Below, one piece after another: positions 9,061 through 62,246 of a stretch of DNA of 64,000 nt. The notes beneath the pieces are model-generated. The model was not told the origin of the DNA and made no database searches. It was given only the letters and a program-made list of their open reading frames with translations. Each line of letters starts with the position of its first letter. The stretch's first letter is position 1. Source of the DNA: Octopus vulgaris (lineage: Eukaryota); NCBI GenBank assembly GCA_951406725.2, contig OX597821.1:44888001-44952000 (forward strand), read 5' to 3'. The position numbers and the translations under genes were made by a program.

Positions 9061-9549
9061 AGATAAATTAAGAAATGGAGTTAAATGCAGGTGTTATTCA
9101 AACCTCTACTTCCGACATTTGTTTTGAAGAAAACATTGATATTATTCCGGAGGGAACTAAATGATGTAAAGCAATGCAATCAACTCAAGGAAAAAAAAGA
9201 AACAAAACATATCACTAAGCCATTTTAACTGAATGTGATTATTGCATATATGATGAAGGGGGAACGCTGGCAAGTTATTTTTTTAAAAAACCGTTAATAG
9301 ATCTATTGGTTTTTTAAAAAATAACTTGCCAGCATTCCCCTTCGTCATTATACACAGTAATCACATTCAGTTAAAATGGCTTATTGATGTGTTTTTTTTT
9401 TTTTGTTTCTTTTGCCCTTATGAGATGATTGCATTGTTTTACATCGTTTTATTTTCTCCGGAATAATATCAATGTTTTCTTCAAAACGTATGTCTGAAGT
9501 ATAAAGATTTGAATAACACCTGTGTTTAACTCCATTTCTTAATTTATCT
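9061..9549. repeat. ~490 bp loopless imperfect palindrome (fold-back element)
   Basis: 'agataaattaagaaatggagttaaa' at 9061 is the reverse complement of 'tttaactccatttcttaatttatct' ending at 9549. Complementarity continues throughout to the centre 'aataga|tctatt' (9296-9307). Confidence 0.95.
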
Positions 9550-10149
9550 ATGTTATACAAAAACATTTCACTTAACTCTGGAATTTCTACCTTTATAAGT
9601 GGGCTGTAACATCCTTGGAACTTGTGGGAATTTTTGCTACCCTGGTAACTATTATCCCTGCTCAAAGAATTTCTTGTCTTTACTGGTGAAAAGCTTCACT
9701 GGGTGAATTTTACATCCTATTCAGAGTTGAAGGTCTGTCCATTCAATGAGTTTTCAATTGCACAAGGTTGGGCATTTATAGAGGTTGCAGCAAAACTTCT
9801 CACCTAAGCCCCAGTAACTTCTGCTATGTCTGCCAAAAATGATGAAAGACAATGCTATTGATTACCAAGTGCTGGATGCTTCTGGTGGATCACTCTTAGC
9901 AGTTTGTCCAGTCCTATCAAATTGAAAGCACAACCTTCTTTAGGTGAAGTCCTGCATTGGTGATTGTGTGAGATAGTTCACCACACTTCTCCCATGATTG
10001 TTTGTTTCACATTGATTAAGAAGGCCTTTTTTTTTTTTTTTGTTTGTTTGTCCTCTGTTACCATTCTCTTCAAAAAAAGGGATTGTTTTCTCCATGTTTC
10101 TGCCACAACTCACAGATGGAAATCCATTGGGTAGAGTCAGCCGCATTCA

Positions 10150-10570
10150 GCTGATGTGGGACCCAAACATCAACTCTGCTGATGTAACCATGTTAATGTA
10201 GATGGTTTTCGACATTCAATTTTGATGTTTGGGGAATATCTGCATTCATTCTGGTCATAAAATAGGCTCATATTAACTAAACTCCTTCATCAAAATTTTG
10301 AAAACCACTTCTGGCACCCATGTTCACCATACACAGTGCTTATCTTCCTGTAGGTTTCCACTGCTTTCCTGCCTTCTTTAGATTAAAAAAAGCATGAGGT
10401 GTCGATAATATTCATTTTAGTCCTCCATTTCCAGTGTGATCTCAAATATAAAATACTAGTTTGAAGTGTCAAGTATCTAACAAATGCACATACACAAGGG
10501 ACAGACTGATTTGAGTGCTTGAAGATTAGTGTTGACAAATACTAAATGGATTTTTTGGCCAACCCAATGC
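10150..10570 (-). mobile_element. Mariner-like transposon 5' fragment
   Basis: The minus strand at ~10293-10318 reads CQKWFSKF (mariner HTH 'VxxWFxxF' motif). TIR-like 'ttttttggccaacccaat' at ~10551-10568. Confidence 0.45.
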
Positions 10571-12909
10571 ATAAATTCTGTAAACTGAACACAGTATTTA
10601 GTAGTAAATTGTATACAATTAACATTAAAATTTTCTGGCTGAAAACTCAAACCTGATTGTAAACTGAATTATATTAATATGATATCTGGTAAGTAAATAA
10701 AAGTATATTTAATGCTTAGAATATCAGAAAGCCACACTATTAAAATAATTAGTAAAACAATGATACAGAAGATCACTTTGAGAATGTTTTACTTGTTGAA
10801 GCTTTTTAGCAAAACTACGGCCTCACAATCATGTAAAGTACTAGCAGTTGAATTGCTAAGTAAACATATATAGATATTTATTACAGTAGAGTAAGAGTAT
10901 GCTACAAAATGAAATTAATATGGGTGCCAGCTGCATGATATTTAACAGTTAAATAGGTAGATGTATATTTAGTTAATTGAGTTAAGAATTCAGCTAATGG
11001 AGACACCTAGTGTTCACGGAAACCAATAACAATTTGTATCTGATGTTGTTGAGAACCTATCATTGGAGAAATGTAGATAGGTGGCTGTATATAGGTATAA
11101 AGTGTGAATTAATGAGGCAATAATGATGATGGTAGGTCACAAGACTATTGACAAGAGATTTGAAATTTAGCATACACAATCATTTATATGTATGTGTTGT
11201 TATTATTTTCCATCTGCTTTTCATGCTGGAATAGACAGGATGGTTCAATAAGATTTGCTCCAATGTCCCATTTGTGGAATGTTTTTATGGCTGGATGCCC
11301 TTCCTAACACCAACTACTTTACAGAATGTACTGGGTGCTTTGTGTGTGTGTGGACCGACACAAAAGATGTCTTGCTGTCTGTGAGATTAAAGAGCCTTCT
11401 CGAGCACTGTATTGTCACTGCTTGAAGCAAATACGGAGAATGATAAAGTGGTATTGGTTTTGATAATGGGGTGGGTTGAATACTGGGATGGGTCAATCTG
11501 CTTGTGGTCTTAATAAAGTTACATAGATTTATTGTTGAGAGAGAGTAGATATAGTATAAAGGTCTAATGGGAGGGAAAGTGAAAACTTGCATTCAGAGGT
11601 TAGAGAGTGAGTGGACAGTGGGAGATGTGCTAGCCCACATTATACATAGGTGGATAAAATGGTATTTGAAGTAAAAATAAGATGGAAGTAGATAATGGAA
11701 AGGAAAAATAGTCTCAGGAGATTAGTCAGAGCAGAACTTGAGACTTCATGATTCTAGATTTTGATTCCACTTCTGGATTTTTTTTTTTCTTTCTTTAAAT
11801 TTTCAATAATCTTTGCTCTAAAAACTAAGTCATCAACATATACAGTGGCTCCCATGAGCAGCTGGTCTTAAAGTTCACTGTTATGGCCCTAAATGGATGA
11901 TGAGAGGGTTTGATAGCTGAGCCTGGTAGACACCTACTTGCACTCCAAATTTCTTGCTGAACTCGTTTCCAACACTCACTTTACTGACTATATCATTATA
12001 CATGATTTGCACTGCTCTCACCAACCATTGTTCATCTTCTAGTTTTCTAAGTAACCACTTGACTAGAAATTGTCTAGGTCTTCTGTAGATCAGTGTATGC
12101 TAAGGAAAGAGGCTACACGCACATGCTTACACATACATACAGACAACAGGCTTCCTACACTTACCACCTACCATATTCACTATCGAGGCTTTAGTCAGCC
12201 AAGGCTGTAATAGAAGACTCCCAAGGTGCCATACAGTAGGACTAAATCTAGAATTGTGAAATTCTGAAGCAAACTTCTTAACTATGATGTCAGCTAGTTT
12301 AAATCTATTTTAGCTTTTCATGATGGACATGGTAATACTGGAGAGGCAACTGAACAGAAACATATTTTTATGGCTCATAAAATTAATCATATACATTAAA
12401 AACATTAAAAGCTTTATCTATAATTAATTGCATAGAAAAGAATTAACTATTGTTTAGGCTAGCTTCATGAGAGAAAGTACATTATCAAAAGTTATATGCT
12501 CTTTAACCTACATTTCACTATCATCATCATCATCATCATCTCGTTCACTTTTCTGTGCTTGCACGAGTTATATGGAATTTGTTGAGGAAGATTTTCTACA
12601 TCTAGATTGCCCTTTCTGTCACCAGCCCTTAACTGTTATTTCTCCATGACCAGAGGCATTTTCATGAAGTGTTGGATATGAGTGACAATGGCATTCATTT
12701 ATTGCTGCCATGCAGTGTCAGGATGGGGAAGCACTTGCATGCACACACTCCTATACATGTACACATATGCATACAATAGGTTTCTTTCAGCTTCTATCTA
12801 CCAGACCACTCAGGACTGAACATGAAGCCATGCAGTTGGCAGGTGAACTTCTTGACCACACAGTCACACCTGCACTTTATATATATATATATATATATAC
12901 ACATACGCA

Positions 12910-34184: not shown

Positions 34185-34230
34185 GGCATCACAAAAGCTG
34201 TTACTCAGAAGTAACAGTTTTTGTGATGTC
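34185..34230. repeat. Short hairpin/palindrome
   Basis: 'ggcatcacaaaagctgttact-caga-agtaacagtttttgtgatgtc'. Confidence 0.8.
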
Positions 34231-34332: not shown

Positions 34333-34380
<48 letters not shown>

Positions 34381-36566: not shown

Positions 36567-36617
<51 letters not shown>

Positions 36618-38445: not shown

Positions 38446-38786
38446 AAAATAGATGGAAGGAAGGTTAGTGATATGACAGATAAATAAGAATAATGACATG
38501 ATAGAGAAACACGAGAAAGGAATACTTGTGTAAGATATGAATATAATATATTGTGGCTGAGCAATAAAAGGCAGAGTGAGAACTGCTTATAAAAGGTATT
38601 GCTAGATAAAGATGATAAGATGAATGAATTCAAACAATCTCAGTAAGCAACAGGGAATTAGAAGTATCACAAGATAAGAGGATGAACAAGTAATATGAGC
38701 TGGCTGTAGTTTGAGTGGAAGGGGGATAGGGTGAGTAAGAAATATAGAGGATTGACCTAAGGGAGAGGAAATTGGGAGAAATATCT

Positions 38787-38868
<82 letters not shown>

Positions 38869-39243
38869 TACATACATACGTACATACATACATACATACA
38901 TACATATACATAAATATATATATAAGAGTTAGGGAGGAGTAAAATGTTTTTGAGACATACAATCCCCAAAATACATAAATTATTGGCATGATAATAATGA
39001 AGATAATGATGAGAATAACAAGACAATACTAAACAATTAAAAGAAAAACACTGTTCATTTATAGAAAATCTCATCTGAAATAAGAAGCAAAGAATTGTGG
39101 TATGTTCTGTCAGGAATAATTAAATAGATCATGGAGAATTCTCTTACACTGATAGAAAATTTTCCATCTTTGATAGTAAAAACATCTCTACTCCATAATG
39201 TTTGAACAATAGACCAGTATGGTATAATTACACTGTCTTCTGC

Positions 39244-39303
<60 letters not shown>

Positions 39304-40571
39304 TTCTCTCTCTGCTGTCAGTGTACATCACAGTAATGGTCACTGCTTCTGAAGAACCAGATTTACCAGCCTAGGCTGTCAGCAAATGTGTTTAGCATAA
39401 TTTACCACATTCTTCCTTAACAAATTAACAATCTCCTTGTCAAGTCTAACAACTCCCACCCACACACCCACAAACACACACATGCATGTGTATACACACA
39501 CACACACACAAACACGCGCGCACACACACAATGTTGCCAAAACTGTATTCTTCCAAAGACTAGATTTTCTCTTTAGAATCAGAAAGAACTTCAGTTGCTA
39601 AAAAACATCTACATAAAATGAAGTAACACCCACATTCAAGTATTTCTATAGTACACAGGACAGTGTTACTGCTACATGCACACAGACATCCTACACTGTA
39701 ATCTAGGATATCTGACTGAAAAATATTTGTAGTATATCATAACTTGCAAACACACTTTTACTTCTTTCTGCTTCTTCAGTTACTAGCTATATAGGCCTCC
39801 TCTCCTCCTCTCATGCAACTATCTACATACTCCTTTCACTTAGGCTTGCTTATTACACCCTGTATGTCTCAGTTTTTTAGATCTTTCACTTAAACTTTAC
39901 TGTATCTTATAATTCTCCTACTTGGGTAATTCCTCTTGACATCCAGAAACATCTGCAGATGTTGCCCTACAGACACTCACCCTGAACATCAACTACATTA
40001 ATCTTATGAGAGTGGAAGAGCCAGCTCAGGTGGTCAGGTAACATCACTGTTATTCAAGTGATAGTATTCATTTGCAATCTTCAGTGAAAACATGTCTGGC
40101 CATTGAGCTGTTTTGAGAAAATATTATCTTGCTTTGAAACAGGTAAGAGGTGTGCAACAGGAAGAGCCTCTAAATGTAGAAAATCTGCCTTGATACACAG
40201 AAAAGTGGGGACTGAAACAATGACAATGAATATAGAAGACACAAAAACAAAAGGTTGTAGCATTGCCTGAAGGAACTGAATTTGCATAGAACCAACAAAT
40301 TGAAATACTGAGCAAAGCTGCCTTGTGGTGATCTGCTCCAACTCAGTTAAGACCCTTCACAACAGGTATATCTCTCTCCTGAAAGTTCATGATAATGTTG
40401 CCCCAGCATGGTCACAGTCAATGGACTGTAACGAGTAAAAGACTAAAAGAATACATAAAATGTCAATTACTTAATTATTACAAAAAACATTAATTTTGGT
40501 GGAAATAACAAAGACAATAACAGGGCTGAATTGAAATGTAGCCTTGGTTTGATATGAAATATCAGAATAGA

Positions 40572-40618
<47 letters not shown>

Positions 40619-40827
40619 GGTGTGTATGTGTGTGTGTGTGTAATACAAGAAAATGTTTTATGGGGTGTGGATGCTAGAGTTACTGGTGGCTAGTAGAAAA
40701 GCTACTTTACCATCCTTTCAAGATAGTCTTAAAGGTTCCATGCACTAATAACAAACCAAACTATGTGAAAGAAAGCCTGTTAAGAATACATATTTGTGTG
40801 TGTGTGGGGGGGGTGCATGTGTATTTG

Positions 40828-40864
<37 letters not shown>

Positions 40865-41194
40865 AGGTTATGTGTATTTATAAATGTCTGGGGTGAATGT
40901 ATGCTATAATATTTACATTTAAATTTATGTGGATTATGGCAGGGTGGGAGGAGGGGTATGTAATATATTTTCGGATGCCAGTAACCTTGTGTATGAGAGA
41001 GAGAGAGAGAGAGAGGTAGGAGATGAGAAAGAAGGCCTGCATGTACTCAAGCATAACTCTATATATGTATTTATGAAAGTGCATAAATGCATACACATAT
41101 ACATATATATATATATATATGTGCATATGTATGTGTGTGTGTGTATATATATATTTATATAAATATACATACATATATACATACACACACACAC

Positions 41195-41555
41195 TCTTGT
41201 TTCGGTCATCTGACTGTGGCCATGCTGGAGCTCCACCTTTAGCCAAGCAGATCGACCCCAGGACTTATTCTTTGTAAGCTTTGTATTTATTCTACCAGTT
41301 TCTTTTGTGGAACTGCTAAGTTATGGGGACATAAATACACCAGCGTCAGTTGTCAAGCAATGTTGGGGGGACAAACACAGACACACAAATACGCACACAT
41401 ACATATGACAAGCTTCTTTCAGTTTCTGTCTACCAAATCCACTCACAAGGCTTTGGTCGGCCTGAGGCTATAGTAGAAGACACGCAGTGGGACTGAACCT
41501 GGAAAGCATGTGGTTGGTAAGCAAGTTACTTACCACACAGCCACTCCTGCACCTA
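41195..41555 (-). mobile_element. tRNA-derived SINE
   Basis: Reverse complement of the 37203 family, ending 'ttaccacacagccactcctgcacct'. Confidence 0.8.
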
Positions 41556-41839
41556 TACATATATAAACACACATATATATTATATAGTAATTACACATAT
41601 ACATTACACAGGAATTATTTTAGACTTGAGTATACACCTGGTAGTGTGCCAATTAAAGCACATTCACCTGATGTCATCAACAGTATGGATATAAATACGA
41701 CTGGATTTACTTCAGGAAATCCTCCATGTCCATTGAATATATAACACAACAACCAGCTACAGGCAAGTAATGAAATGTATTATAATCGAACTAAGCAAAA
41801 CCAGGATGCACCACAACTAGTTGTCCAGCCAGGCCAAGT

Positions 41840-43845
41840 GTGACTTGGTGGTGGAACAAGAAGGTGGACAGCGCTATAAAAGCAAAAAGACAGATCTTAA
41901 AAAACTGCAAAAATGGTGGAAGCAAAGCATTATATCAGGGAGCCAGAAGGGAAGCTAGGTGACAGGTTTACATAGCAAAGTAGGATAGCAGAAGATAAGA
42001 AGTTTGCTAATGTTCTACAGTAAGAAGATCAGGGATGTAAGGTGTTCAGGATTGCAAAGTAGTGTATCAGAGAAAATAGAGATGTGGTAGGTGAGAAATG
42101 TGTGCGAATGGATAATGGTATGCTTGCACTTAGTGACTCAGGGAAGAAAGATGTGAGGAGATGCCATTATGAAAGGTTGTTAAATGTGGAGAATGACTGG
42201 GAGAAGGAGAGTCTTTCAAATATTGACCAGCCATCAGAATGGGTAGCAGTATAATAGATAAGGCAATTAAGAAAATGAAGACTGGGAAAGCCCCTGGACC
42301 ATTGGATATCACTGCCAAGATGATTGAAATATCAGGTAGTGTGGGATACAGCCTAATCACTCGCATAGTTAATCAGGTTATACATCAAAGACAGGTGAAG
42401 CAATATCGTAGCCAGCTGTTATAAGGGTAAAGGTGATGCCTTAGATACAAACAGCAAACTGTTGGATTAGGCCATGAAAATTACAGCGAGAGTTATATCA
42501 CAACTAAATGGGGATAGAATTAACCTAGATGAGATGCAGTTTGGTTTTGTACCTGGGAGAAGCACCACAGATGTCAACTACATAGTGAGACAGTTGCAAG
42601 AAAAGTATTTGGCGGTTGCACTTAGCCTTCATTGACCTGGAGAAAGTTTTTGACAGGGTTCCCAGCTCTCTTATCTGGTGGTCTCTAAGGCAGCTAGGAG
42701 TACAGGAGTGGCTTGTTAGAGCAGTTCAAGCCATGTACAGCGATGCTGTCAGTAAGGTGAGAGTTGACCTTGAATACAGTGATGAATTTAACATAAAAGT
42801 TGGAGTACACCAGGGATCAGTTCTTAGTCCACTCTTATTCATCATAGTTCTCCAAGCCATAACAGATGAATTCAAAACTGGATGCCCATGGGAACTATTA
42901 TATTTTGATGATCTTGCTCTTATTGCAGAATCTGAAGCAGAATTGGAAAAGTTCCAGGTTTGGAAGCAAAATCTGGAATCAAGGGCCTTAAAGTTAACTT
43001 AGCTAAGACTAAAGTTGCTATTAGCAAGAAAGGAGATAAGACTCTCATTCCGGCTGGCAAATGTCCCTGTGCAATATGTAGGAAAAGAGTAGGATATAAT
43101 TCCATTTGCTGCACCAAGTGTAAGTTATGAATGCATAAGAGATGCAGTGGAATCATAGGAAGTTTATCAGATTAGGTCGCTTTCATGTGTGGCAGATGTG
43201 CAGGAACAGTAAGTACTAAGAGCATGAGGGACTTAAACTCTCTCAAATGCTCAGGAGACTCTCTTGAGGTAGTAGATAGTTTCTGCTGTTTAGGTGATCA
43301 AATTAGTAATGGTGGTGGATGTTCTGAAAGTATTGTTTCTAGAATAAGAACAGGGTGGAGGAAGTTCAGAGAACTACTAACTCTGTTGGCAGCAAAAGGA
43401 CTCTCTCCCAGAGTGAAAGGTTGGTTGAATGTTACTTGTGTGAGAACGGCTATGTTATATAGTTGTGAGACATGGGCTTTGACTGCAGAGGACATGCATA
43501 GGCTGGAGAGGAATGACGGTAGTATGCTCTGTTGGATATGCAATATCAGTGTGCATGACCGACAAAGCACAGCTGTGTTGAGAGAAAAGTTAGGCATAAG
43601 AGGGATTAAATGTGGTATGCAGGAGAGGAGACTGCGTTGGTTTGGATATGTGTTGCATATGAGTGAAGACAGCTGTATACAGAAGTGCCTGTCATTGTAA
43701 GTGGATGGTACTTGTGGAAGAGGGAGATCCAAGAAGACATGGGATGAAGTAGTAAGGACTGATCTTAGGATGTTGGGACTTATGGAGGAAATAACAGTGG
43801 ACCGAGATGTTTGGAGATATGAAGTTCTAGAGAAGACTCGGCCAT
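41840..43845 (+). mobile_element. Degenerate RTE-clade LINE (RT domain with an embedded PHD-like finger)
   Basis: KMKTGKAPGP, QFGFVPGRSTTD, AFIDLEKVFDRVP, GVHQGSVLSPLLF, LLYFDDLAL, MLYSCETW and RRLRWFG, with multiple stops and frameshifts. Confidence 0.92.
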
Positions 43846-46800
43846 GAAACTGAGTGTTAGAAGAGTTGTGTCACACCCATTCTACCCTAAGAAATCAAAC
43901 TACAGCTCCTCTCCTAACTGCATCTTTGTCTTCTTCACATTTTCTCTTCATAAATTATGATTGTTTTCCAATCCCCTTTCTTGCCCTCACTGTATTGCTG
44001 CTCCCACACTTCCAACACCCACACCCTATTTTTCAAACCAGGTTCTATGCTCATATTCTTGTTACTTGTGAGTACACTCTAGCATTACACCATCTCACTT
44101 CTGCTCTCTCTCTTACACTTTTGCTGTTTCCTACTCTCTCTATTCCCTTTCATCACTCTCTCTCTCCTTCTCTTGATTTTCCTCTACCTCTCTCTTACTC
44201 TGTATATCTCTCTCTCTCTCACTGGGTAACCATGTACCTCCTCTACAGCAAGACACCTATTTCTGCCTCTCTATTTCTCTGTTACACACTAACCTTTCAT
44301 CATTTGATACTGGATCACCTCCTATAATGCCCCCTCTGTTGTGGCAAGACACCTGCTTATGTCTCTCTGTCTCTTTGTCACACTCCAACCTTTCATCCTC
44401 TTGTCTTGTGAGTTACTTGGTTACTCTGCCAGTGCTGGTGCTATGTTAAAAGCATCCAGTCCACACTGTAATGTGGTTGGTGCTTGGAAAGGCATTCAGC
44501 TGTAAAAATCATGCCAAAACTAACATTACCTGTGCTAGTGCCATGTAAAAAGCACTGAGTCCACTCTGTGGAGTGATTGGTGTCAGGAAGGGCATCCAGC
44601 TGTAAAATCCCTGCAAAACAGACAGAATAGCCTAGGGTAGTTTTCCTACCAGTCTGGCTCCTGTCAACTGTCCTACCTATGCATGCATGGAAGATGGATG
44701 TTAAACAATGATGATAATAGCAATGATATATATATATATAAAAACATGAGACTAGAAAATTTTGTGACATTATTTATTCACTATTAAATGTTTCATTTTC
44801 TAATGGGAATTACAAAATTGTACATGTAATAGAAAACATTTTCAACTCTTAGACATACCTCTCACAAACATAACATCTACATACAACTTTGAAGTACAGG
44901 AATAAGCAGGATCACAATCCTATCTGCATTGTTTAGGCACAATGATTGATAGATTGATTAATTGATAGGCAGGCAGGCAAGCAGATAGTTAGATATAGAT
45001 ATAGATATAAGAGCAATAGATATAAAGTTAGGTGAACATATTCCATGCAATACTCAATAAATTCTTCATTTATTGAAATTTTAATTGCAGACAAGGAAAG
45101 CAAAAATCAGACAGGTCTCACTCCCTGTTGCATTCCTAGTTACATTGTGGGCAAAGTTCAGTGAATTTAAGAGATCTATTGCTATCTGTATTCACATGGA
45201 CAGTATAGTTAGAGTGAGAAAAAGGGATAAGTAATATGGGCACAAGTGAAAAGGCCAAGGATGACAAATGGGTAGCAGTGATATGACTGAGAGATAGGTG
45301 AGTGATGAGAGGGATGTGTGGTAAGAGAGGCAAGTGACAGATATATTAGAAGGATGGGAGGCTATCCAGGAGACCCAAGATTTGACCTTGACAGTATGTA
45401 TGGAGGCTGAGAGTAGAAACAGACTGGCCAGGAGAAGAGGGCTTTGGTGTGGGAGTTGTGTTATTTAGAATGACACTCTGAGTCTTTCAAAGGATAGGCA
45501 ATGAAGCTGCCTAGGCACCAAAATTAGGTTGTAGTCATGAGAAAGTCAAAAGAAGGGAGGGTGTTGCAGTGTTTAATTCACAGATGACCTCAGTTCTCTA
45601 GGTGTTAACTATTAAGCCCATTTTTTCCTAAAGTGTAACCACCAGTGAAAAGATGACCTAGAGCACTCTGGTATCTGACCTATCTGAGTACAAACTTCGA
45701 TATGTTATAACCCAAGGATCTGTTCAAATCTAAAGTTGGTGATGGCTTGCTGCCTTCTCATGTTGAAAAGATTTCTGTCAGGTCACAAATTGATAGTGGC
45801 ACATGCCTCTCTTTTTATTCTGTGCTCTTGAGCGCTACTGGTAACATGTAAACCAGTACAACCTGTCACATGGTCGGGTCGTTGGCGACTAAATTGGCAA
45901 CTCCATCAAGCTTGCTTGATGAGGAGGGTGATTGTTGGACACTCTGTGGGATGAAAAATAAGACCCATCAAAGGGTGGAAGAACTACTGTGTAGTCAATG
46001 GCCAAGTCAACAAGTACCTTGTCACAGTGAAGTGCCTGTGTGCTCCATTGACCCAGAGAACTATGCTGGAGAGAGAGAAATCTTCAGGCAGGTCGAAGGG
46101 TAGGAGACGGACAAAACCATAATGCCAATAAATTGAAGTGTCGGCAGCAGGGTGTGGATTTAGTTATCGGCAGGACCTAACAGATCAGATTCCTGGCTTT
46201 GAACTAGCAGGATATCATGCGGAGGATCTTGAATACAAGACAATGGATAGGACCCTCATATTCATGGTTAGGTGGAAACTGCGGGATCACATGGAGTAGC
46301 ACCCTGTGACTCCTATAGTATGTGCAACTGAAACCCCTATGGGGGCATCCTATGCGACAACCTAGATGAGATAGATGACCACACAGGAGCCAGTGTGCAA
46401 CCTTTCTTAGCTCCCATTTTATACTGACAAGCTCAGATTTCTACTCTCCAACAATTCAAACCATCATCCCTATGTGGACGTAATGGTGGAGACTTGTGAA
46501 TATATGCAGGAACCAAACTTTCTGAGAACATCTAAAGTACCACAAAGCAAAACTCACACAAACAACAAATAAACACACAGAGAACAGGCTTCTGCACAGT
46601 CTCCTTTTACTAAACTCCATTCACAAAATTTTGATCATATTGAGGCTAAAGCAAAAGACACTTAGCCAAAGTGCTATGCAATGGGATTGAACGCAGGGCT
46701 GCATGGTTGCAAAGCAAATGCCTTACCCACCTAGCCATAGCTGCACCTATTCTTAACAACAGAGCCATACATGTGACCATATTTAATTATAATACTAAAC

Positions 46801-48633
46801 ACTTCTCATTACAGTAACCACCATAGATATGCCAATGACATTTACAGGTAGGTTTTTATGGTAATATTTTGCAGTTTTGGGATGGCCTACCTATTTTACA
46901 GCTTGGTATTACTGAGGTGAGTGTACAATAATGTACTTTATTGAAGAACACATCTCTAATGACAGAATTTTAGCTTACAAATATTAATGTCAGTAGTCCC
47001 CTAGCTATACCTATGTTTCTTGGCTTATCAAACACTGACAAAGATGGAAAAGCTTAGTTGTTGCCAGTTGTATGTATTGTAAGGTTAGTTTAAAAAAAAA
47101 AAAACCCAAAAAACCTGCCCACAAATTAATGACCCTAGCATTACGTCTACATTGAGAAGAAGACATTCTGGAGCATGTAAAGATTATGTTTATGTTCTCG
47201 CTGTCACATGGTAGGAATTCATTAAAAAAAAAAAATAATGAAAATAAAGATAAAAAAGTAATGACAGCTGTAAAAGATATCTCCTCTAACAAAACTTATG
47301 ATAGAGTTACAATGTATATTTTTAGCTATATCTATACATATTCAGTTTTATAAATATCACTTTAAGCAATGCAAAGCTCTTATTAAAATTGGATTGTGAC
47401 ATAAGAAGTATAACAGTGAAATATATTTCATTGGTAAAATGTGATAGTGACCACATTTCAATTGAAATAATAGGAATTATAATGAAACAAGACTATAAAA
47501 ATAGTATTAAAATCACAATTATAGCCTTGCAAAAAGATATTTAATGTATCGTATGTAGATGCAAAACAAATTTACTCGACTAAATTCTATATTTTTATTT
47601 TTGAAGTAGTTGTTATTAAATTTTGCTATCAATTTTATTTTCATCTAAATGTACATCCTATATATCCTACAAACATACATACATGTATATCTTTATATAT
47701 ATATATACACACACATATATATACATAGACTTATCAACATCCTTAAGTGATTTACAACAGCAGTACACACACACACACAGAGTAATAAATAAGTAATGGT
47801 TAGCAACGATAAGTCTCTAAAATAAGATTTGATAATGGAACTCTGGAGTACATCATACTAAAATAATACTTCCAAATAAAAATTAAAAAAACGAAAAACA
47901 AAACCAGTTTATTATGAGAAGTTTCTAATAGTTGTAGCCTTGATCTATATGATATGTAAGTTAGCAGAATATCACCAGGTCAGCATCTGTAAAAGCTGAG
48001 GGCAACACGTTAGTTGTAACTTGATATCAATCTCTTTGCTCAAATGCTTTCTGTTACTAAGAACTGGAAGCTGGTAAAAGTATTCTTAAGTAGCACTGCT
48101 ACTACATTGCTGTTGTAGTCTCAAATATATTAGAGATGCTAAATTGTCTTTTAATTTCTCTTTGAGGAGCTTTTCCATATTATGTTGGGTACCAAGGTAG
48201 GCATCATTCCTATGCTTCAGGAATTTATCCTATTAAACAGAAATATCATTGCTATGTTGACCTCCCACTAGCATGAAAACAGTCTCACATTGATAAGAAT
48301 TGAAACTATGAAGTCCCCAGAGATTCTATAGATATAATATCAATCTTAATTTCAAAAGACCACATTTTACTTCATGAAACAATCAGCTGTAGATTGTTAA
48401 ACTACTACTAATACCTAGAAAATAAACTTCCAAAGTATTTCGGGGAAGATTTGCCTTACTAATTGCTATAGGAACAGGCATGGCTGAGAGGTTGAGAAGC
48501 TCACTTAGCAACTACATGGTTTCAGGTTCAATCCCACTGTACTATACCTTGGGCAAGTATCTTCTACAATAGTCCTGGGCTGACCAATACCTTGTGAGTG
48601 AATTTGGTAGCTTGAAACTGTGTGGAAGCCCTG

Positions 48634-48688
<55 letters not shown>

Positions 48689-48939
48689 GCCCTTTGTGGA
48701 TGCAAAACCACTGGTCACTCTATGACCAGACATAAACTTAACTACTTATAAATATATATATATTCTTTTATTTGTTTCAATCATTTGACTGCAGCCATAC
48801 TGAAGTATTGCCTTGAAGGGTTTTTTTTGTTAAACAAATTGACCCCAAGCCTTTTTTAAACCCAGTAATTATTCTATGATGGGGGGGGGGGACAAACACA
48901 GACACAAACAGGCACACACACACACACACACACATATAG

Positions 48940-49001
<62 letters not shown>

Positions 49002-49382
49002 AAACAATACTGGGAGGATGAGAAACGGAACGAAACGAAGACTCGAACGAACCCGACGCAAAGCGCTGTCAGACAATAGTGTAATAAATAAAATATATGC
49101 ATACATACAAACATATATGTACGTACAGACATCTACATGTATATATACATGCATAGGGTAATAAGAATTATAGAAATTTTTATTACCAGTGGCCTAGCGC
49201 ATAAAAAAAGTTAGTCAATAGACTATATATTATATAAAAAATATCGTGTATATTAAAACACATTAAGAGGCTTCCATCATAGGAAAGCCTTGCACTAGAA
49301 AGAGCAGTAAACAACTCAAAGCACTAATTAGGGATAAATTCACGAAGGGAAAGAAAATTAAAAACATTTACCATCTAATTTA

Positions 49383-49454
49383 GTTCCTAAACCATGGTTT
49401 CTGACTTACTTCAGTAAAAAAATTTACCAAAGCCAGTCTTCATCAGTAGGTAGC
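49383..49454 (-). ncRNA. Second hammerhead copy in the opposite arm
   Basis: Reverse complement reads gctaccta CTGATGA agactggctttggtaaa...ttactgaagtaagtca GAAA ccatgg TT|tagg. GUU triplet; stem II has some mismatches. Confidence 0.65.
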
Positions 49455-49637
49455 CTTTAGATTTTAAATATACACACAACGAGATTGATTTCGCATGTAA
49501 ACTCATTATCTATATATTCTAACTTTTCAAATCCACTGCGCAGACGGAGCTTATTTCCGGCAACAGAGAGGATGCTGGTAAAACCTCGAATAAATTTATC
49601 AAAAATCATTCATTGTGTGTATATTTAAAATCTAAAG

Positions 49638-49708
49638 GCTACCTACTGATGAAGACTGGCTTCAGTAAATTTTTTACTGAAATAAGTCAGAAACCATGGT
49701 CTAGGAGC
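49638..49708 (+). ncRNA. Minimal type I hammerhead ribozyme (Penelope-type, palindromic stem III)
   Basis: gct-a-ccta CTGATGA a-gact-ggc-ttcagtaaa...tttactgaa-ata-agtc-a GAAA ccatgg TC|tagg-agc. Stem I is ccta/tagg plus gct/agc, stem II is long, stem III is the ACCATGGT palindrome, and the GUC cleavage site falls after 49701. There is a non-canonical A.A at the base of stem II. Confidence 0.75.
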
Positions 49709-50059
49709 TAAATTAGATGGTAAATGCTTTTAATTTTCTTTCCCTTCGTGAATTTATCCCTAATTACTGGTTTGAGTTGTTTACTGCTCTTTCTAGCGCA
49801 AGGTTTTCCTATGATGGAAGCCTCTTAATGTGTTTTAATATACACAATATTTTTAGATGAATAATATATAGTCTATTGACTAATGTTTTTTTTGTGCTAG
49901 GCCACTTGTAATAAACATTTCTATAATTCTTATTACCCTAATATTACTTATTATGTTTAAATGATTTCTGATAAATTTATTCGAGGTTTTACCAGCATCC
50001 TCTCTGTAGCATAGTGCTACAAGTACAGACATATATCACAGCAGATGAGAACCATCTGA

Positions 50060-51105
50060 AATGTGCAGAAAACAGACTCTACCAACTGCCAGTGGGGCAA
50101 GCTAGAGGTAGTAGATAGCTTCCGTTATCTAGGTGACCAAGTTAGTAGTGGAGGTGGATGCTCCGAGAGCATTGTTGTGAGAATAAGATTAGGTTGGGCA
50201 AAGTTCAGAGAGCTCCTACCCCTGCTGGCAACAAAGAGCCTCTCTCTCAAAGGCAGATTGCGTGATGCCTGTGTGCGAACAGCTATGCTGCATGGCAGTG
50301 AAACATGGGCTATGACAGGCGAGGACATGTGTAGGCTTGAAAGAAATGAAGCCAGTATGCTTCGCTGGTTGTGCTATGTCAGTGTGCATGTTTGACAGAG
50401 TGTAAGCATCTTAAGAGAAAAGTTAGGCATAAGAGGAATCAGATGGGGTGTGCAAGAGAGATGACTGCACTGGTATAGTCATGTGATGTGTATGAATGAG
50501 GACAGTTGTGTAAAGAAGTGCCGATCTCTAACTGTGGAGGGAGCCTGTGGTAGAGGTAGACCCAGGAAGACATGGGACGAGGTGGTGAAGCATGATCTTC
50601 GAACTTTGAGCCTCACAGCGGCAATGACTGATGACCAAGACCTTTGGTGATGTGCTATGCTTGAGAAGACCTGTCAAGCCAAGTGTACCCAGCTGATGGC
50701 ACATAAAGAACGTCTTTTGAATATTGGGCTTTATAGAGGCAAAGTGGCTGAGTTCCTTTTGAGTGTTGGGCTTCACAAATGTAATGACCAAAGCCCTTAG
50801 CATTATGTCATGCTTGAGAAGAAGACCCATCAAGCTGAGCAAAATCCCAGTCATGGCAGATACTGGTTTCATGCAAATTGGTACCCATGCTGGTGGTATG
50901 TAAACACAGCCTGGTGTCATACCGGTGTCACATAAAAGCACCCATGACACTCTCAGAGTGGTTGGCATTAGGAAGGGCATCCAGCTATAGAAAACCATAC
51001 CAAATCAGACTGGAGTCTGATGCAGCCTTCCGGTGTGCCAGCCCAGTCAAACCATCCAACTTATGCCAGCATGGACAACGGACATTAAATGATGATGATG
51101 ATGAT
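50060..51105 (+). mobile_element. RTE LINE 3' portion with 3' UTR and (GAT)n tail
   Basis: LEVVDSFRYLGDQVSSGGG...MLHGSETW...GRGRPRKTW, an internally repeated 'tgcttgagaagacc' UTR and the tail 'ggacattaaatgatgatgatg'. Confidence 0.88.
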
Positions 51106-51328
51106 ACACACGTGCACACACACACACTGATGAAAGATGTAAACATCAACAAGATGAAGTGGTGATTCTGAAGTTTGTTCTGTCAGTGTTTAACACCAGA
51201 AGCATAAATATATTGAATCAAAAACAGTTCATAGTGGCACCTGTAACTAACGAAACAATTGTTTATAAGGTATAATATAAATTAAGAAAGAAAAGAAGTG
51301 GTGATGTTGTACAAAATGTCTCGTGCAT

Positions 51329-51375
<47 letters not shown>

Positions 51376-52289
51376 CACACAACAACAACAACAAATAAAA
51401 TTATTTCTTTATCACAGAGGATAATTAATCAGCCTGGAGACATTACTCCAATTACTCTTACTTGAAGAATGAAAGACAAAGCTGACTACCATGAACATTG
51501 AGACATCAAATTGATTAATATTAAAGCCTCATGTACTACACTGTACATCTTTATTATCTCTGCTCTCTTAAATGGTGATGTTACATTGATATAAACAGTG
51601 ATCAATAACCTGAGAGATAAATTAAATATTTGTTAAGCTGAGTAATTAGTAATTACAAGATACTGAGTGGTATTTATGTTAACGGGTGATAGACCAGTGT
51701 CAAATAGGTTAAAGTTTTTGTTTGGAGATTAGTGAAATAAAATTGCTAAACTGGATATTGAACCTTGATTGCAACTAAATTTTAACTACATGATTGTTTT
51801 GGAATAACTGACATCATTGTTTGAACATTTAGAGCTTTTGTTTAATTATTGATTAAACCTAGCCAAAGGTAAATAAGGAGAGAAAACTTGCAATGACAGT
51901 TCTTGTTATCATATAGATATCTAAATACCAGTTATTACTGACATTAACTGGTTTCAGTTGGCTGCAACTACCTGACGTACTCTCCAACTCTCCAATCTTA
52001 TTTCATCCTTATCATCCTAGTTCTTTTGACCATTTTGAGGTATGCATATATGTATTATGTATTCGTGTGTGTGTATACACACACACACATACATACACAC
52101 ACACGGAGATAACCCTGCTTGATACTTAGAAAAGGTTTCAGGAGAAACTCCATATGGTGTACTCAGTACAAGCTATGGTCACATAAGAAGTGCAGTGCTA
52201 TCACTTGAAGACTAACAGAGAAAGTAGTCTTTACATGTGGCAGATGTGCAGGTACATTAAACACTGCCCCACTAGACTGATAACAAGTA

Positions 52290-54620
52290 GACCCCCGTAC
52301 CATAACTTCTATGACCAAGAAGACCCCTAAAGAGAGATGGAATGAGTGGACCAGAGTTATATGGACCCCCGAAAACAATGATCGGGTTAAAAAGATGGTC
52401 ACACATGAGGTGGGTGCGAGTACCAAGACCACACTCAAGAACCATATATCTAAGTTTAATAACAAGATATATGTCTAAGAGCAAGGTGGAGACATCAGTG
52501 TCAGTATCACTGGCGATGTGTTTAACATATTTATGGTATGGTGGGATAGGAAACTTAAAGAGAAATTAGCAGAGAACTCCATAAATCTAACCATGTACAC
52601 CTGCTATGCGGATGACATCAACATAGTAGCCAAAGCACCCCTACAAGACAATATTGATGATCCAGAAGCTAACACTATGGACAGCATCCAACTAATAGCT
52701 AACTCCATCCACCAGAGTATAGAAATAATGATAGACTACCCTAGTAAGCACCTTAACTATAGGTTACCCATTTAAGACACAGAACTCTGACTAGAAATGA
52801 AAAATGGTAAGGTCCGGATCCTTCACTCTCAATATGCCAAACCCATGGCCTCTAAGTACCTTGTTCACAAGAATGCGGCTATTGCAGACAACGCCAAGTT
52901 CAACATTCTTATAGCTGACTTGGTGAGAGAGATGAGGAATGTGTCTCACATGTGCGACCCTATGGAATTGGGAAGACACATGTAACACTTCATCCACCAC
53001 TGCAGTTCTCTGGTCACAATCAAAGGGACAGGATTAGAGTGTACAAAGGAATCAGAACTAAGAGGATCTGCCTGCTGTACAGGAATAAATCCTGGAACAG
53101 CACAGAAAGGACCAAGATAGATAAGGCCAACTCTTGGTATGACAGCAAGAGCACACATGAAGACGAAAAGTATCACTGAAGAGGTTACAGATGTGTAATG
53201 AAAGATTTCTGGACAATGGACATGATTTAAAATAAGAACAGAAATAAACGAGTGAAGAACAAATAATAAGAGTGTGTGTTTATTTGGTTAAAAAAAAAAA
53301 ATTACCATCCTGAAATACAACAATATACAGGGGTTGGACAAAATAATGGAAACACCTAGCATCATAGTATCATAGTTGATGCTACCCCTGGCAGCAAACT
53401 AACATACCCTTTTAGGAAAATATTAAGTAAGGCTAATCTACAGATTAAAGTAGTAGAAAGGCCTGGTACTCCTACAAAATCCCTGATCTGTAGAACCTAT
53501 GCCTTTGATAAGTCTCTATGAATGGAGAACAATTGTGTTGAATGTAGGATGAACCTATGGGTTAACTGTAAAGTTAGGAATATAGTGTATAGCTTACAAT
53601 GTAGTGAGGGATGGTGCAGAAACATGACAACTACCTACATTGCAGAGACTGCATGCAGCATAGGAGTGAAGACTGGCGAGAGCTCAAAGAAGAGAAAGGC
53701 TCATCAGTGCCCCAGCAACATGCTCAGGCAGAACATGGAAGATCAGTTAATAGCATAGAGGTTGAAGTATTTTCGATACATAGAACTGACATGACACTAT
53801 GACAGCTCACAGAAGCTACACACATAGAAGTGGAGAGAAAACATGAATGGAACACCACACGACTAAAGACAGAAGGAAGGAGAAGTGAGAGGTAAAGAAG
53901 ATAATAAATAAAACATAGATACAAACAGGGTAATACACACACAATAGACATATATGAAAATACCTGTAATACATTATATTAGAAATAGAGATCGATAAAT
54001 ATATAAAAATAAATAAATATATTTGTTACATTCCTATGACAAATATAAGAAATAGAGATATATAATAAATAAATAAATATAAAGGGTATGAACACAAAAA
54101 ACATAAGAAGCGAATTCATATACATACACACAAACACACACACAAAATAACTTCACAGATGGCTGCAATAATATCAACAACATGACTAACAATGACAACA
54201 GCAGCGACGTGACAACGATGGCTATAACAACAACAACTACCATGATGACAATATCATGGATGAACACAGAGATACAGGAAGTGTAGCAAATTTTCAGGTC
54301 CTAGGACAGCAGCAGCACAATGGGGTGAGAGGATGGGGCTGAGAGGAAAGCCATACTGCTGCCAAGAACAAGGACACACACACATGTGCACACACATACA
54401 CACACAAACACGGATGCAAATGCATGCGCACTTAAAGATACACATCATAGAAGTGCAGAATGGAGGAAGAGCACACACGAAGACGGAAAGTGTCAGTGAA
54501 GAGGTTACAGATGTGTGATAAAAGATTTCCGGACAATGGACATGAGTTAAAATATGAACAGTAATAAACGAATGAAGAACAAATAATAAGAGTGTGTGTT
54601 TATTTGGTTAAAAAAAAAAA
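52290..54620 (+). mobile_element. Degenerate Penelope-like element (RT C-terminal half, GIY-YIG endonuclease and terminal repeat)
   Basis: CYADDINIV (RT YxDD), ANSIHQSIEIMIDYPSKH..RLPI, YAKPMASKYLVHKNAA (PLE thumb), DATPGSKL..IKVVERPG and CKVRNIVYSLQC...C....YIAET..S (GIY-YIG with Cys/His motif, later HAQAEH). Hammerhead-like motif in the terminal repeat. Confidence 0.85.
53147..53374 (+). repeat. ~228 bp direct repeat of 54467-54694, inserted within the PLE ORF
   Basis: 'aagagcacaca.gaagacg.aaagt.tca.tgaagaggttacagatgtgt...atacaggggttggacaaaataatgga.acacctagcatcatag' occurs twice, 1320 bp apart. Confidence 0.92.
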
Positions 54621-54764
54621 ATTACCATCCTGAAATACAACAATATACAGGGGTTGGACAAAATAATGGATACACCTAGCATCATAGCATCATAATTTTG
54701 AAATATCTATAAAACTGTCAAAAGCATGTTTATTTTTATGTTTTTTATTTATTATTAGTGTTAC

Positions 54765-55160
54765 TCTTTTACTCTTTTACTTGTTTCAGTCATTTGACTG
54801 CGGCCATGCTGGAGCACCGCCTTTAGTCGAGCAAATCGACCCTGGGACTTATTCTTTGTAAGCCCAGTACTTATTCTATCAGTCTCTTTTTGCCAAACCG
54901 CTAAGTGACGGGGATGTAAGCACACCAGCATCGGCTGTCAAGCAATGCTAGGGGTACAAACACAGACACACAAACACACACACATACATATATATATAAA
55001 CACATATATACGACAGGCTTCTTTCAGTTTCTGTCTACCAAATCCACTCACAAGGCATTGGTCGGCCCGGGGCTATAGCAGAAGACACTTGCCCAAGATG
55101 CCACGCAGTGGGACTGAACCCGGAACCATGTGGTTGGTTAGCAAGCTACTTACCACACAG
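54765..55160 (-). mobile_element. Young tRNA-derived SINE inserted in a Tc1-like end fragment
   Basis: CpG-rich copy of the 37203 family. The flanks 'ttattagtg' and 'cttaatgttttgc' continue a sequence beginning with the TIR-like 'tacaggggttggacaaaataatgga' at ~54646. Confidence 0.8.
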
Positions 55161-55374
55161 TGCTTAATGTTTTGCTAAAACTGCTGTTTCTTTTCAGATA
55201 TCATCAGAACAAAGTAATTAATATACCCATTTGCATCGATGAGAAGCTAATATCTTTTCATTATTTCAATAAAGCTTCTTACCACACAGCTACACCTGTG
55301 CCTATATCTATATAAATGTTACATGAATGATAACGTTTTGAAATGAAAAGTTTAATATCTAATTTCATATTCTT

Positions 55375-55599
55375 TTAGTCCTTTATTTGTTTCAGACATT
55401 TGACTGCAGCCATGCTGGAGCAACACCTTTATTTGAACAAATCAACCCCAGGACTTCTTCTTTGTGAGCCTAGTACTTATTCTATCAGTCTGTTTTGCTG
55501 AACCGCTAAGTTATGAGGAAGTAAACACACCAACATCAGTTGTCAAGCAATGGTGGAGGGACAAACACAGACACACAAATACATATTATACACACAAAT

Positions 55600-55636
<37 letters not shown>

Positions 55637-55800
55637 CGACGGGCTTCTTTCAGTTTCTATCTATTAAATCCACTCACAAGACTTTGGTCAGCCCAAAGCT
55701 ATTGTAGAAGACACTTGCCCAAGGTGCCACGCAGTAGGACTGAACCTGGAACCATGTGGTTGGTAAGCAAGCTACTTACCACACAGCCACTCCTGCGCCT
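55375..55800 (-). mobile_element. tRNA-derived SINE
   Basis: Same family, ending 'ttaccacacagccactcctgcgcct'. Confidence 0.85.
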
Positions 55801-56418
55801 GTGTATATAAGTGATAAATATAATTTGATAAAAATTTGCAGTTTATTTTGATTAGAATGCTAGCATCATCAGTACAAAACCTTTTACTGCAGTTTGCCTG
55901 CAACTCAATCTCACTCTATTTGTTGTTTTAGTTTCCCTGTATCAGTGTGACCAATGGGACACACATTGCATTTTATTATATCTAAGATATTCATTGGGTT
56001 GAAACTATAATGATATCTGTTCAGTAGCTGAAGATGGAATGTATGTTTCATGTGCTTGCTCTTAGGGTTTTTCTTAATTTCTTTTTTTCTTTTTTTGTGT
56101 ATGCATCATTGTCAGTGAACCTTTTGTATCGTGGTTCTAAACAGTCCTTCATTGAAATTCTAGTTATTGTAATTCTAGTAATTTAAGGTTAAATTTGTTT
56201 AAAGAGATCTTGATTTCTTAGTTTATGGTAGTTTTGTTGTTTATATTATTCCATACATCAATATTGTGTAATGGCCCTTCATTAGGAATCTAATTCTGGT
56301 TTAAGGGTTATACTTGTTTAGGGGTTTCTAATTTATGGTGGCTTTGTTGCATATCTATTTATCTATTTACACACACACACACACTACCTGACAAAGTAAG
56401 ATATGAAAGCAAAGTTAC

Positions 56419-56653
56419 CATTTTCTCGTTGCTTAATGTCAGCTGCTTTTTTCTCTTCAGCTATTTTCTTTGCAAGATTTATTTCAGCTACTTTCTGATA
56501 GATGTCTTTAATTTCATTTGGAGTAATTCCTGGGCTTTTGCTAGAGATTCTTGATGTGTACTTTGGGTTACATATTAGACTGAAATCATCTTCAGAATAC
56601 TGGAACGCAGGGGGAAATAGTTCTTGAACCCAATGTTTTTGTGAAGACTCCAT
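56419..56653 (-). CDS. CCDC160: CCDC160-like protein, first coding exon (exon extends to 56688 as 5' UTR)
   Basis: Acceptor 'tttattttacag|' at 56689/56688, ATG at 56653, donor 'gaa aat g|gtaact' at 56419/56418 (phase 1). MESSQKHWVQELFPPAF resembles my recollection of the CCDC160 N-terminal 'KHW.E..F.P.F' motif, and 'IKDIYQ' resembles 'MEEIYN'. Confidence 0.7.

Positions 56654-59973: not shown

Positions 59974-60029
<56 letters not shown>

Positions 60030-61964: not shown

Positions 61965-61967
<3 letters not shown>
61775..61967 (+). mobile_element. RTE-type 3' tail fragment
   Basis: 'cacccactacactctcggagtggttggcgttaggaagggcatccagc...ggaaagcggacgttaaacgatgatgat'. Confidence 0.8.
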
Positions 61968-62003
<36 letters not shown>

Positions 62004-62046
62004 ATATATATATATATATACACATACACACACACATATTTATATA

Positions 62047-62246
62047 TAAGAAAATGAGATGACAGGATAAATTACTATCTTATGAGCTTCATTAGCTTAC
62101 AGCTGATTTTGCTATAAAATGCAGTGGATTCATTGTTGAGTGCCTGAGTAACACCTATGAGTCCACTGCATCTTATAGCAGAAACAACTGTAAGCTAATG
62201 ATGCTCAAAAAATATTCGCTTATTCTTTTGTCATCTTATTTTCTTA
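62047..62246. repeat. ~200 bp fold-back element
   Basis: 'taagaaaatgagatgaca...gagcttcattagcttacagctgattttgctataaaatgcagtggattcat' is mirrored by 'atgagtccactgcatcttatagcagaaacaactgtaagctaatgatgctc...tgtcatcttattttctta', with a ~20 nt loop. Confidence 0.9.

What the first reader, a model, noticed from the sequence alone, without database searches (positions are those of the whole stretch)
9061..62246. Candidate system: recurrent fold-back elements linked to hammerhead motifs and a resident Penelope-like element
Seen: five fold-backs in 64 kb (9061-9549, 34185-34230, 34444-34663, 49154-50007, 62047-62246), each next to (TA)n or low-complexity tracts and without obvious TSDs. One has clear hammerheads; others keep only pieces (e.g. 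GAAACA[A/G]CTGTA at 62181; TGA[T/C]GA...AAACC near the 9301 axis). A PLE with a hammerhead-like terminal motif lies in the same window. Established: PLEs often insert with an inverted terminal repeat. Inference: these palindromes may be a class of non-autonomous PLE-mobilised hairpin elements rather than classical DNA MITEs, seeding long intronic dsRNA. That would matter if the host is a coleoid, since coleoids have extensive A-to-I editing.
Basis: inference. Interest (0 to 1): 0.75.

Follow-up and report, generated by a model that had tools for sequence, protein, structure and literature searches.

The report
Penelope-type hairpins, one carrying a tRNA
The five hairpins in this octopus DNA are short, back-to-back leftovers of five different jumping-gene families, likely all pasted in by Penelope-type enzymes, which is a known pattern; the one unusual member is a small non-coding repeat that carries a tRNA-like fold where its relatives carry a self-cutting RNA motif.

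Summary
All five fold-backs are real, but their density is ordinary here (61 in 600 kb of evenly spaced control DNA). They belong to five unrelated high-copy families. Copies of each show the published Penelope-like element (PLE) footprint: (TA)n, an inverted copy starting at a preferred point, a variable fold axis, a one-sided tail, no TSD. So the hairpin is a by-product of insertion, not a MITE and not the mobile unit. Two (9061, 34185) are 3' stubs of protein-coding PLEs. One (49154) is a ~480-nt head-to-tail hammerhead unit, retrozyme-like. One (62047) carries a family hammerhead, autonomy unresolved. One (34444) is a 318-nt head-to-tail unit with no canonical hammerhead but an internal tRNA-like cloverleaf (ARAGORN; Rfam above cut-off in one copy); I found no such PLE-type element in print. 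The resident PLE is real but shares no sequence with the five. Editing, small RNAs, circles and cleavage are untested. The scan noted the same inverted-PLE footprint, retrozyme-like units and a tRNA-headed PLE repeat before on other DNA of this genome.

The parts
9061..9653 (+). F1: 5'-truncated 3' end of an autonomous RT + GIY-YIG PLE: inverted copy 9061-9300, sense copy from about 9301, one-sided tail 9550-9653
9416..9494 (+). decayed copy of the F1 family minimal hammerhead (a second decayed copy lies in the left arm, - strand)
34177..34325 (+). F2: very short 3' stub of a second autonomous PLE; folds back at the hammerhead helix III palindrome, keeps only the last hammerhead bases (34209-34218); tail 34242-34325
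34378..34663 (-). F3: truncated copy of a 318-nt head-to-tail non-coding unit with an internal tRNA-like cloverleaf; sense copy on - strand from about 34565 to 34378 (tail 34378-34443), inverted copy about 34566-34663
34552..34565 (-). remnant of the F3 tRNA-like domain (3' strand of the T stem and acceptor stem); the rest was lost by 5' truncation in this copy
49154..50010 (.). F4: two opposed pieces of a ~480-nt head-to-tail non-coding hammerhead unit (retrozyme-like); the + arm runs across the unit junction; intronic in the - strand gene
49642..49705 (+). intact minimal type-I hammerhead, GUC triplet, palindromic helix III
49386..49450 (-). second minimal hammerhead, GUU triplet
62047..62341 (+). 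F5: truncated copy of a hammerhead-bearing PLE-type family; inverted copy 62047-about 62150, tail 62247-62341, 3' half of the hammerhead at 62181-62195; no ORF found upstream in relatives
52280..54700 (+). resident decayed PLE (RT about 52281-53120, GIY-YIG-like part about 53402-53890; 234-bp repeat 53144-53377/54464-54697 with a hammerhead-like motif at 53176); unrelated in sequence to F1-F5
35156..56653 (-). host gene: coding exons 56653-56420 and 35848-35156 with a 20.5-kb intron that holds F4 and the resident PLE

Best explanation
The five fold-backs are 5'-truncated insertions of five unrelated repeat families, likely all made by Penelope-type reverse transcriptases that primed twice at a (TA)n target, so that a short inverted copy lies head to head with a short sense copy. 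Shown: the shared insertion shape in dozens of copies per family; ORF-bearing relatives for F1 and F2; head-to-tail non-coding units for F3 and F4; minimal hammerheads in F1, F2, F4, F5; a tRNA-like cloverleaf and no canonical hammerhead in F3. Inferred: a PLE endonuclease nicks TA-rich DNA, one DNA end primes at the RNA's 3' end (giving the sense copy with tail), the other primes at an AT-rich site 60-150 nt further in (giving the tail-less inverted copy), and the two aborted cDNAs are joined at microhomology or at a palindrome. F4, and likely F3, are non-autonomous passengers copied from tandem or circular RNA. In F3 the tRNA module most likely serves as an internal RNA polymerase III promoter or RNA-processing signal (my odds: promoter 0.4, inert passenger 0.35, RNase P/Z cut site 0.25).
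For: Copies per family, own copy included: inverted copy next to the 5' end in 8 of 17 (F1), 14 of 20 (F2), 15 of 29 (F3, tail query) and 19 of 19 (F3, fold-back query), 10 of 29 (F4), 17 of 20 (F5); its outer end is nearly fixed in F1 (403-427 of 560), F2 (322 of 406 in 9 of 14), F5 (225 of 317 in 10 of 17) and the F3 fold-back set (251-274 of 318), while the axis varies. This is the arrangement drawn for PLEs in PMC8557442 section 6 and Fig. 2 legend (inverted 5'-truncated copy, one-sided tail, (TA)n target, no discernible TSD). F1: 4 of 17 copies run over 1.2 kb upstream into RT-end and GIY-YIG remnants; F1 matches the 3' ends of loci with RT + GIY-YIG ORFs up to 677 aa, which have 54 homologues, most marked PF26215. 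F2: tblastn hits upstream in L180/L184 (one duplicated locus), L191 and weakly L203 of 30 loci. F4: unit junction crossed in 20 of 29 loci (17 direct, 3 inverted), hammerhead pattern in 26 of 29 (one doubtful parse), no PLE ORF hit in 29 loci. F3: the 3' end lies directly upstream of the unit start in 28 of 29 loci, no shared sequence beyond the unit; ARAGORN calls tRNA-Thr on the majority sequence at default threshold, 0 of 500 shuffles, 10 of 29 copies at relaxed threshold; Rfam RF00005 35.3 bits against a cut-off of 29 in copy L176. Control DNA: 30 of 61 fold-backs have a microsatellite at an outer end against 20% background (p 4e-7), 27 of the 30 on one side only.
Against: No autonomous partner was found for F3, F4 or F5, so PLE mobilisation of these rests on insertion shape alone. 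The F1, F3 fold-back and F5 copy sets were fetched with fold-back queries and over-represent fold-backs; only the best 40 candidates per search were scored. In F4 the inverted copy's outer end is not fixed (85-479), and 4 of 15 inverted F3 copies in the tail-query set include the tail. Tails of 60-150 nt are longer than the 30-40 nt given in PMC8557442. Pfam named no domain in the 677-aa ORF; 'GIY-YIG' and 'Neptune-like' rest on motifs read by eye and on recall. Rfam found no tRNA in two other F3 copies, no compensatory pair was seen in the F3 cloverleaf among 29 copies, its first acceptor pair is a mismatch, and a T6 run just behind it should stop polymerase III. Of 27 one-sided fold-backs in control DNA only 1 matched one of the five families and 3 held a relaxed hammerhead core, so the genome-wide extension is not shown.
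Confidence: 0.85

Rival explanations
1. One class of non-autonomous hairpin elements that transpose as hairpins and are mobilised by the resident PLE.
For: Many F3 and F5 copies are fold-backs of similar size; four families carry hammerheads.
Against: Axes differ among copies; monomers and tandems are common; F1 and F2 continue into ORFs; no similarity among families or to the resident PLE beyond chance-level words.
Confidence: 0.05
2. Ordinary DNA MITEs or foldback transposons with TA target duplications.
For: Palindromic, short, high copy, TA flanks.
Against: Asymmetric ends with a one-sided tail, 5' truncation, head-to-tail junctions, hammerheads and RT-linked relatives.
Confidence: 0.03
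3. F3 is a tRNA-derived SINE mobilised by a LINE, with inversions from twin priming, and only looks like the PLE-type families.
For: tRNA-like domain with A and B boxes; tRNA-derived SINEs are abundant in octopus (PMC13282606 passages).
Against: The tRNA is internal (unit positions 74-145), units are joined head to tail in 28 of 29 loci, none of 29 tail-selected copies starts at the tRNA 5' end, the inverted copy duplicates the 3' part rather than inverting the 5' part, no TSD or poly(A).
Confidence: 0.12
4. F3 (and F5) are terminal repeats of autonomous PLEs whose full-length copies were missed.
For: An earlier scan note (e1-8669850, unchecked) reports a PLE terminal repeat that begins with a tRNA-type promoter; F5 relatives continue upstream into TG/TA-rich sequence like the F2 3' UTR.
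Against: For F3 the sequence upstream of the unit start is its own 3' end in 28 of 29 loci and no ORF adjoins it; only 40 of 492 first-look candidates were scored.
Confidence: 0.2

Closest known systems
Endonuclease-bearing Penelope-like elements with inverted 5'-truncated copy and one-sided tail (Craig et al. 2021, PMC8557442; passages and section 6 read)
   Same: Inverted 5' copy, partial tandems, tail at one end, (TA)n targets, no TSD; RT with C-terminal GIY-YIG in F1 and F2 relatives.
   Different: Tails here are 60-150 nt; the window's copies are reduced to 150-600 nt so that they mimic MITEs.
Minimal hammerheads of metazoan PLEs (Cervera and de la Pena 2014, PMC4209133; passages read)
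   Same: Type-I core, short helix I, long helix II, palindromic helix III in F1, F2, F4, F5.
   Different: F2's majority core has C in place of U at position 4; F3 has no such motif.
Metazoan non-LTR retrozymes (PMC7229834, passages; Li et al. 2026, bioRxiv 10.64898/2026.07.22.740005, parts 1-3 of 5 read, supplements not seen)
   Same: F4: short, non-coding, head-to-tail unit with a type-I hammerhead, proposed PLE dependence.
   Different: F4 is dispersed as 1-1.9-unit copies with PLE-type inversions, hammerhead of the minimal type; circRNA not shown.
Helenus / TRIMp3, non-autonomous LTR elements with a tRNA-like sequence in the LTR (Kojima 2024, PMC10886601; passages read)
   Same: F3: small non-autonomous element with an internal tRNA-derived module not at the 5' end.
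   Different: Helenus has two LTRs, PBS, PPT and 4-5-bp TSDs and depends on LTR elements; F3 has the PLE insertion shape; that paper does not contain the word Penelope.
tRNA-derived SINEs
   Same: tRNA-like A and B boxes in F3.
   Different: tRNA internal, head-to-tail units, no TSD or poly(A), inverted 3' duplication.

Membership tests
EN+ Penelope-like element (F1, F2) | RT plus GIY-YIG endonuclease ORF in the family | tested here: met
   ORF remnants collinear with the 3' ends; homologues with PF26215; Pfam itself gave no hit, domain names by motif reading
EN+ Penelope-like element (F1, F2) | inverted 5'-truncated copy and one-sided tail | tested here: met
   8 of 17 and 14 of 20 copies
EN+ Penelope-like element (F1, F2) | minimal hammerhead near the 3' end | tested here: met
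EN+ Penelope-like element (F1, F2) | placement in the Neptune clade by RT phylogeny | not tested
   label recalled from motifs; F2 relative L180 shows the cysteine motif before GIY-YIG, L266 lacks it; no tree built
Non-LTR retrozyme (F4) | non-coding head-to-tail unit with a type-I hammerhead | tested here: met
   20 of 29 loci cross the junction, 26 of 29 match the hammerhead pattern, no ORF
Non-LTR retrozyme (F4) | two consecutive units each with a complete hammerhead (Li et al. criterion for active copies) | tested here: inconclusive
   L006 spans both positions but only one matched the pattern; 29 of some 2600 candidates seen
Non-LTR retrozyme (F4) | self-cleavage and circular RNA | not testable with these tools
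   only assembled contigs were offered
MITE / DNA foldback (all five) | symmetric fixed termini and fixed internal structure | tested here: not met
   one-sided tail and variable axis
MITE / DNA foldback (all five) | target-site duplication | tested here: inconclusive
   none visible at the window's ends, but TA duplications cannot be read inside (TA)n
tRNA-derived SINE (F3) | tRNA-like A and B boxes | tested here: met
tRNA-derived SINE (F3) | tRNA head at the 5' end of the element | tested here: not met
   tRNA at unit positions 74-145; 0 of 29 copies start at 74 +/- 5; 28 of 29 loci continue upstream into the unit's own 3' end
tRNA-derived SINE (F3) | 3' tail shared with a LINE | not tested
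   no LINE library available
TRIMp3 / Helenus (F3) | two LTRs around a PBS-PPT spacer, 4-5-bp TSD | tested here: not met
   units abut with no spacer; ends in (TA)n with PLE-type inversion

The most novel reading that the evidence does not exclude
The 34444 family is a Penelope-mobilised, tRNA-derived non-autonomous retroelement, the PLE counterpart of SINEs and TRIMp3, in which a tRNA module enclosed in a long stem replaces the hammerhead as promoter or RNA-processing signal; and aborted double-primed PLE insertions are the main source of the roughly quarter-million short fold-backs of the octopus genome, hence a major supply of long dsRNA for A-to-I editing.
Probability: 0.3. Interest if true: 0.7.

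Novelty: new variant of a known kind. Interest (0 to 1): 0.42.

Why it matters
Most of the finding is a known PLE insertion footprint, useful mainly as a warning that MITE-like palindromes in cephalopod genomes can be retroelement stubs. The F3 unit would add a third way for a small RNA gene to found a mobile element (after SINEs on LINEs and TRIMp3 on LTR elements) and gives a testable case of what a PLE enzyme needs in a passenger RNA when no hammerhead is present. If fold-backs of this kind are transcribed, their density (about one per 10 kb) would make them candidate ADAR substrates, but that is not shown.

Tried and rejected
Rfam on the whole window gave only microsatellite-driven miRNA matches, no hammerhead. 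Pfam on 300 of 310 stop-free frames of 55 aa or more found LINE-type RT pieces, PIF1 and BRICHOS, and only a weak RT hit on the resident PLE. Similarity of the five families to the resident PLE: none beyond chance words. The shared 13-mer between F3 and F4 is in opposite orientation and taken as chance. A pile-up of F3 5' ends at the T arm and acceptor (16 of 29 at unit positions 133-150) could reflect a reverse-transcription stop at the tRNA, but lies at the edge of the query and is also explained by microhomology, so it is not counted as evidence. A rewired hammerhead in F3, suggested by earlier scan notes on other families, was looked for by eye only and not found. Covariation in the F3 cloverleaf: none among 29 copies. 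Walking F5 upstream ended in TG/TA-rich sequence with no ORF hit in 24 loci. Attribution of control fold-backs to PLEs by similarity to ORF-bearing loci was uninformative because matches fell in flanking SINEs. RNA: no RNA holder listed for the F4 copy; contigs laid on 33500-50500 show the host gene's last exon but are swamped by other repeat copies over the arms, one A>G difference in one contig is no evidence of editing. Read support for the gene structure beyond 50500 was not obtained, so whether F5 is intronic stays open; the position of F1 relative to the BRICHOS gene was not tested. Literature searches listed no paper on a tRNA-bearing PLE-mobilised element or on PLE-derived fold-backs in octopus; most subscription papers and Repbase are outside that library.
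Full report
Observation. Self-comparison confirms five fold-backs at 9046-9565, 34183-34232, 34440-34666, 49154-49940 and 62046-62247. I call their families F1 to F5 in that order. The genome is 2.8 Gb and a window gene is 99% identical to an Octopus protein, so the host is an octopus.

Five families, one insertion shape. Each element has 1400-2600 first-look candidates in the genome, of which 40 were scored per search. In the 600-kb control the families have 3, 4, 2, 3 and 1 insertions, diverged relatives included, that is thousands to some ten thousand copies each. Family references share no more than 10-31-nt words with each other or with the resident PLE. Copies read: (TA)n, an inverted copy whose outer end lies at a preferred point 60-150 nt before the family's 3' end, a junction that differs from copy to copy, the sense copy, a tail present on that side only, (TA)n. 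Counts, own copy included and duplicate loci dropped: inverted copy in 8 of 17 (F1), 14 of 20 (F2), 15 of 29 and 19 of 19 (F3, tail and fold-back queries), 10 of 29 (F4), 17 of 20 (F5); the F1, F3 fold-back and F5 sets are biased towards fold-backs by their queries. Craig et al. 2021 (PMC8557442; passages and section 6) describe exactly this for PLEs: 5' truncation, partial tandems, an adjacent inverted 5'-truncated copy, a one-sided tail and (TA)n targets. MITE membership fails on symmetry and fixed structure.

F1 and F2 are stubs of autonomous PLEs. Four of 17 F1 copies extend over 1.2 kb upstream into remnants of an RT end and a GIY-YIG-type domain. A protein search of the genome returns a related family with open frames up to 778 aa; loci of both groups carry sequence like F1 behind the ORF, and the 677-aa frame of L266 has 54 homologues, most marked PF26215, though Pfam names nothing in it directly. 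F2 relatives run about 1 kb through an AT-rich UTR into the same kind of ORF (L191, L180/L184 of 30 loci). 'Neptune-like' is my recalled label, not a tested placement. Both families carry a minimal type-I hammerhead with palindromic helix III, the form described in PMC4209133 (passages). The window's F1 copies of it are decayed and lie at about 9416-9494 and in the mirror position, not at the axis; the window's F2 copy folds back at the helix III palindrome and keeps only its last bases.

F4 is retrozyme-like. It is a unit of about 480 nt whose end is joined to its own start in 20 of 29 loci, with the hammerhead pattern in 26 of 29 and no PLE ORF hit. The window's copy is two opposed pieces, one crossing the unit junction, so the template was longer than one unit (tandem or circular; inferred). 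This fits non-LTR retrozymes (PMC7229834, passages) and their proposed PLE origin (bioRxiv 10.64898/2026.07.22.740005, parts 1-3 of 5; supplements not seen). It lies in the 20.5-kb intron of the minus-strand gene.

Upstream walking reached TG/TA-rich sequence with no ORF hit in 24 loci; autonomy is unresolved.

F3 is the odd one. Its unit is 318 nt; in 28 of 29 loci fetched with its 5' part, the unit's own 3' end lies directly upstream, nothing else is shared and PLE ORF fragments in 4 of those loci lie some hundreds of bases away as separate insertions. It has no canonical hammerhead. Positions 74-145 form a tRNA-like cloverleaf: ARAGORN calls tRNA-Thr on the majority sequence at default threshold and on 0 of 500 shuffles, and on 10 of 29 copies at a relaxed threshold; Rfam RF00005 scores 35.3 bits (cut-off 29) in copy L176, chosen as one of the best, and nothing in two other copies. 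A long stem encloses the cloverleaf and includes a T6 run. No compensatory pair appears among the copies, as expected for neutrally decaying copies of one master. It is not a standard SINE (tRNA internal, head-to-tail units, no copy of 29 starting at the tRNA) and not Helenus/TRIMp3 (PMC10886601, passages), the nearest published idea. Searches listed no PLE-mobilised tRNA-bearing element; an unchecked scan note (e1-8669850) reports a tRNA-headed terminal repeat of an autonomous PLE in this genome, which keeps open that F3 derives from such a repeat.

Resident PLE. About 52280-54700 (+) holds decayed RT and GIY-YIG-like frames and a 234-bp repeat with a hammerhead-like motif that folds no better than shuffles. 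It shows no protein similarity to the F1-type ORFs and no DNA similarity to F1-F5; its presence is a coincidence of a PLE-rich genome (PMC13282606 passages list 31 recently active PLE families in O. vulgaris).

Mechanism (inferred). A PLE endonuclease nicks TA-rich DNA; one end primes on the RNA's AT-rich 3' end and the other on an AT-rich site a little further in; both cDNAs stop early and are joined at microhomology or a palindrome, giving a hairpin with a one-sided tail. Earlier scan notes (e1-9539494, e1-8667002) reached the same double-priming reading for other families; they are not independent support. The dsRNA and editing idea remains untested: only assembled contigs were available and they are uninformative over repeats.

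Verdict. Observation confirmed; interpretation partly supported. Four of the five are members of known kinds; F3 is a new variant worth a targeted follow-up. Interest 0.42.

Noticed in passing
window 13380-14440 (-): Decayed PIF1-helicase frames (Pfam PIF1 and Pif1_2B), likely a Helitron remnant.
   Followed up: no
window 16340-18973 (+): Exons of a BRICHOS-domain membrane protein gene, ITM2-like by recall.
   Followed up: no
window 53144-53377 and 54464-54697: The resident PLE's 3' repeat also sits inside its ORF, between RT and endonuclease parts, 94% identical.
   Followed up: partly
F1 and F5 references; control locus L272:2533-2946: The point where the inverted copy starts follows a similar CATTT(T)CTTA word in F1 and F5, a weak hint that F5 uses an F1-type enzyme.
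   Followed up: no
F2 family (e.g. L096, L098, L099, L102): Several copies fold back exactly at the hammerhead's helix III palindrome, beside the predicted cut site; the query was biased towards such copies.
   Followed up: partly
L146 (G000:C1:78388000-78393800) and L148: ORF-bearing F1 copies are fold-backs too, with arms over 1 kb, and L146 holds nested PLE RT fragments.
   Followed up: no
G000, e.g. C5:89649005, C1:75011825, C5:2197208: A younger PLE family about 61% identical to F1 has many long open frames, up to 778 aa, often in opposed pairs.
   Followed up: partly
window 6902-7017: A sixth, weaker fold-back without flanking microsatellite.
   Followed up: no
window 32350-33600 (+) and 30950-31750 (+): Decayed frames that look like a DNA-transposase fragment and an integrase-region fragment; no Pfam hit, labels by recall.
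   Followed up: no
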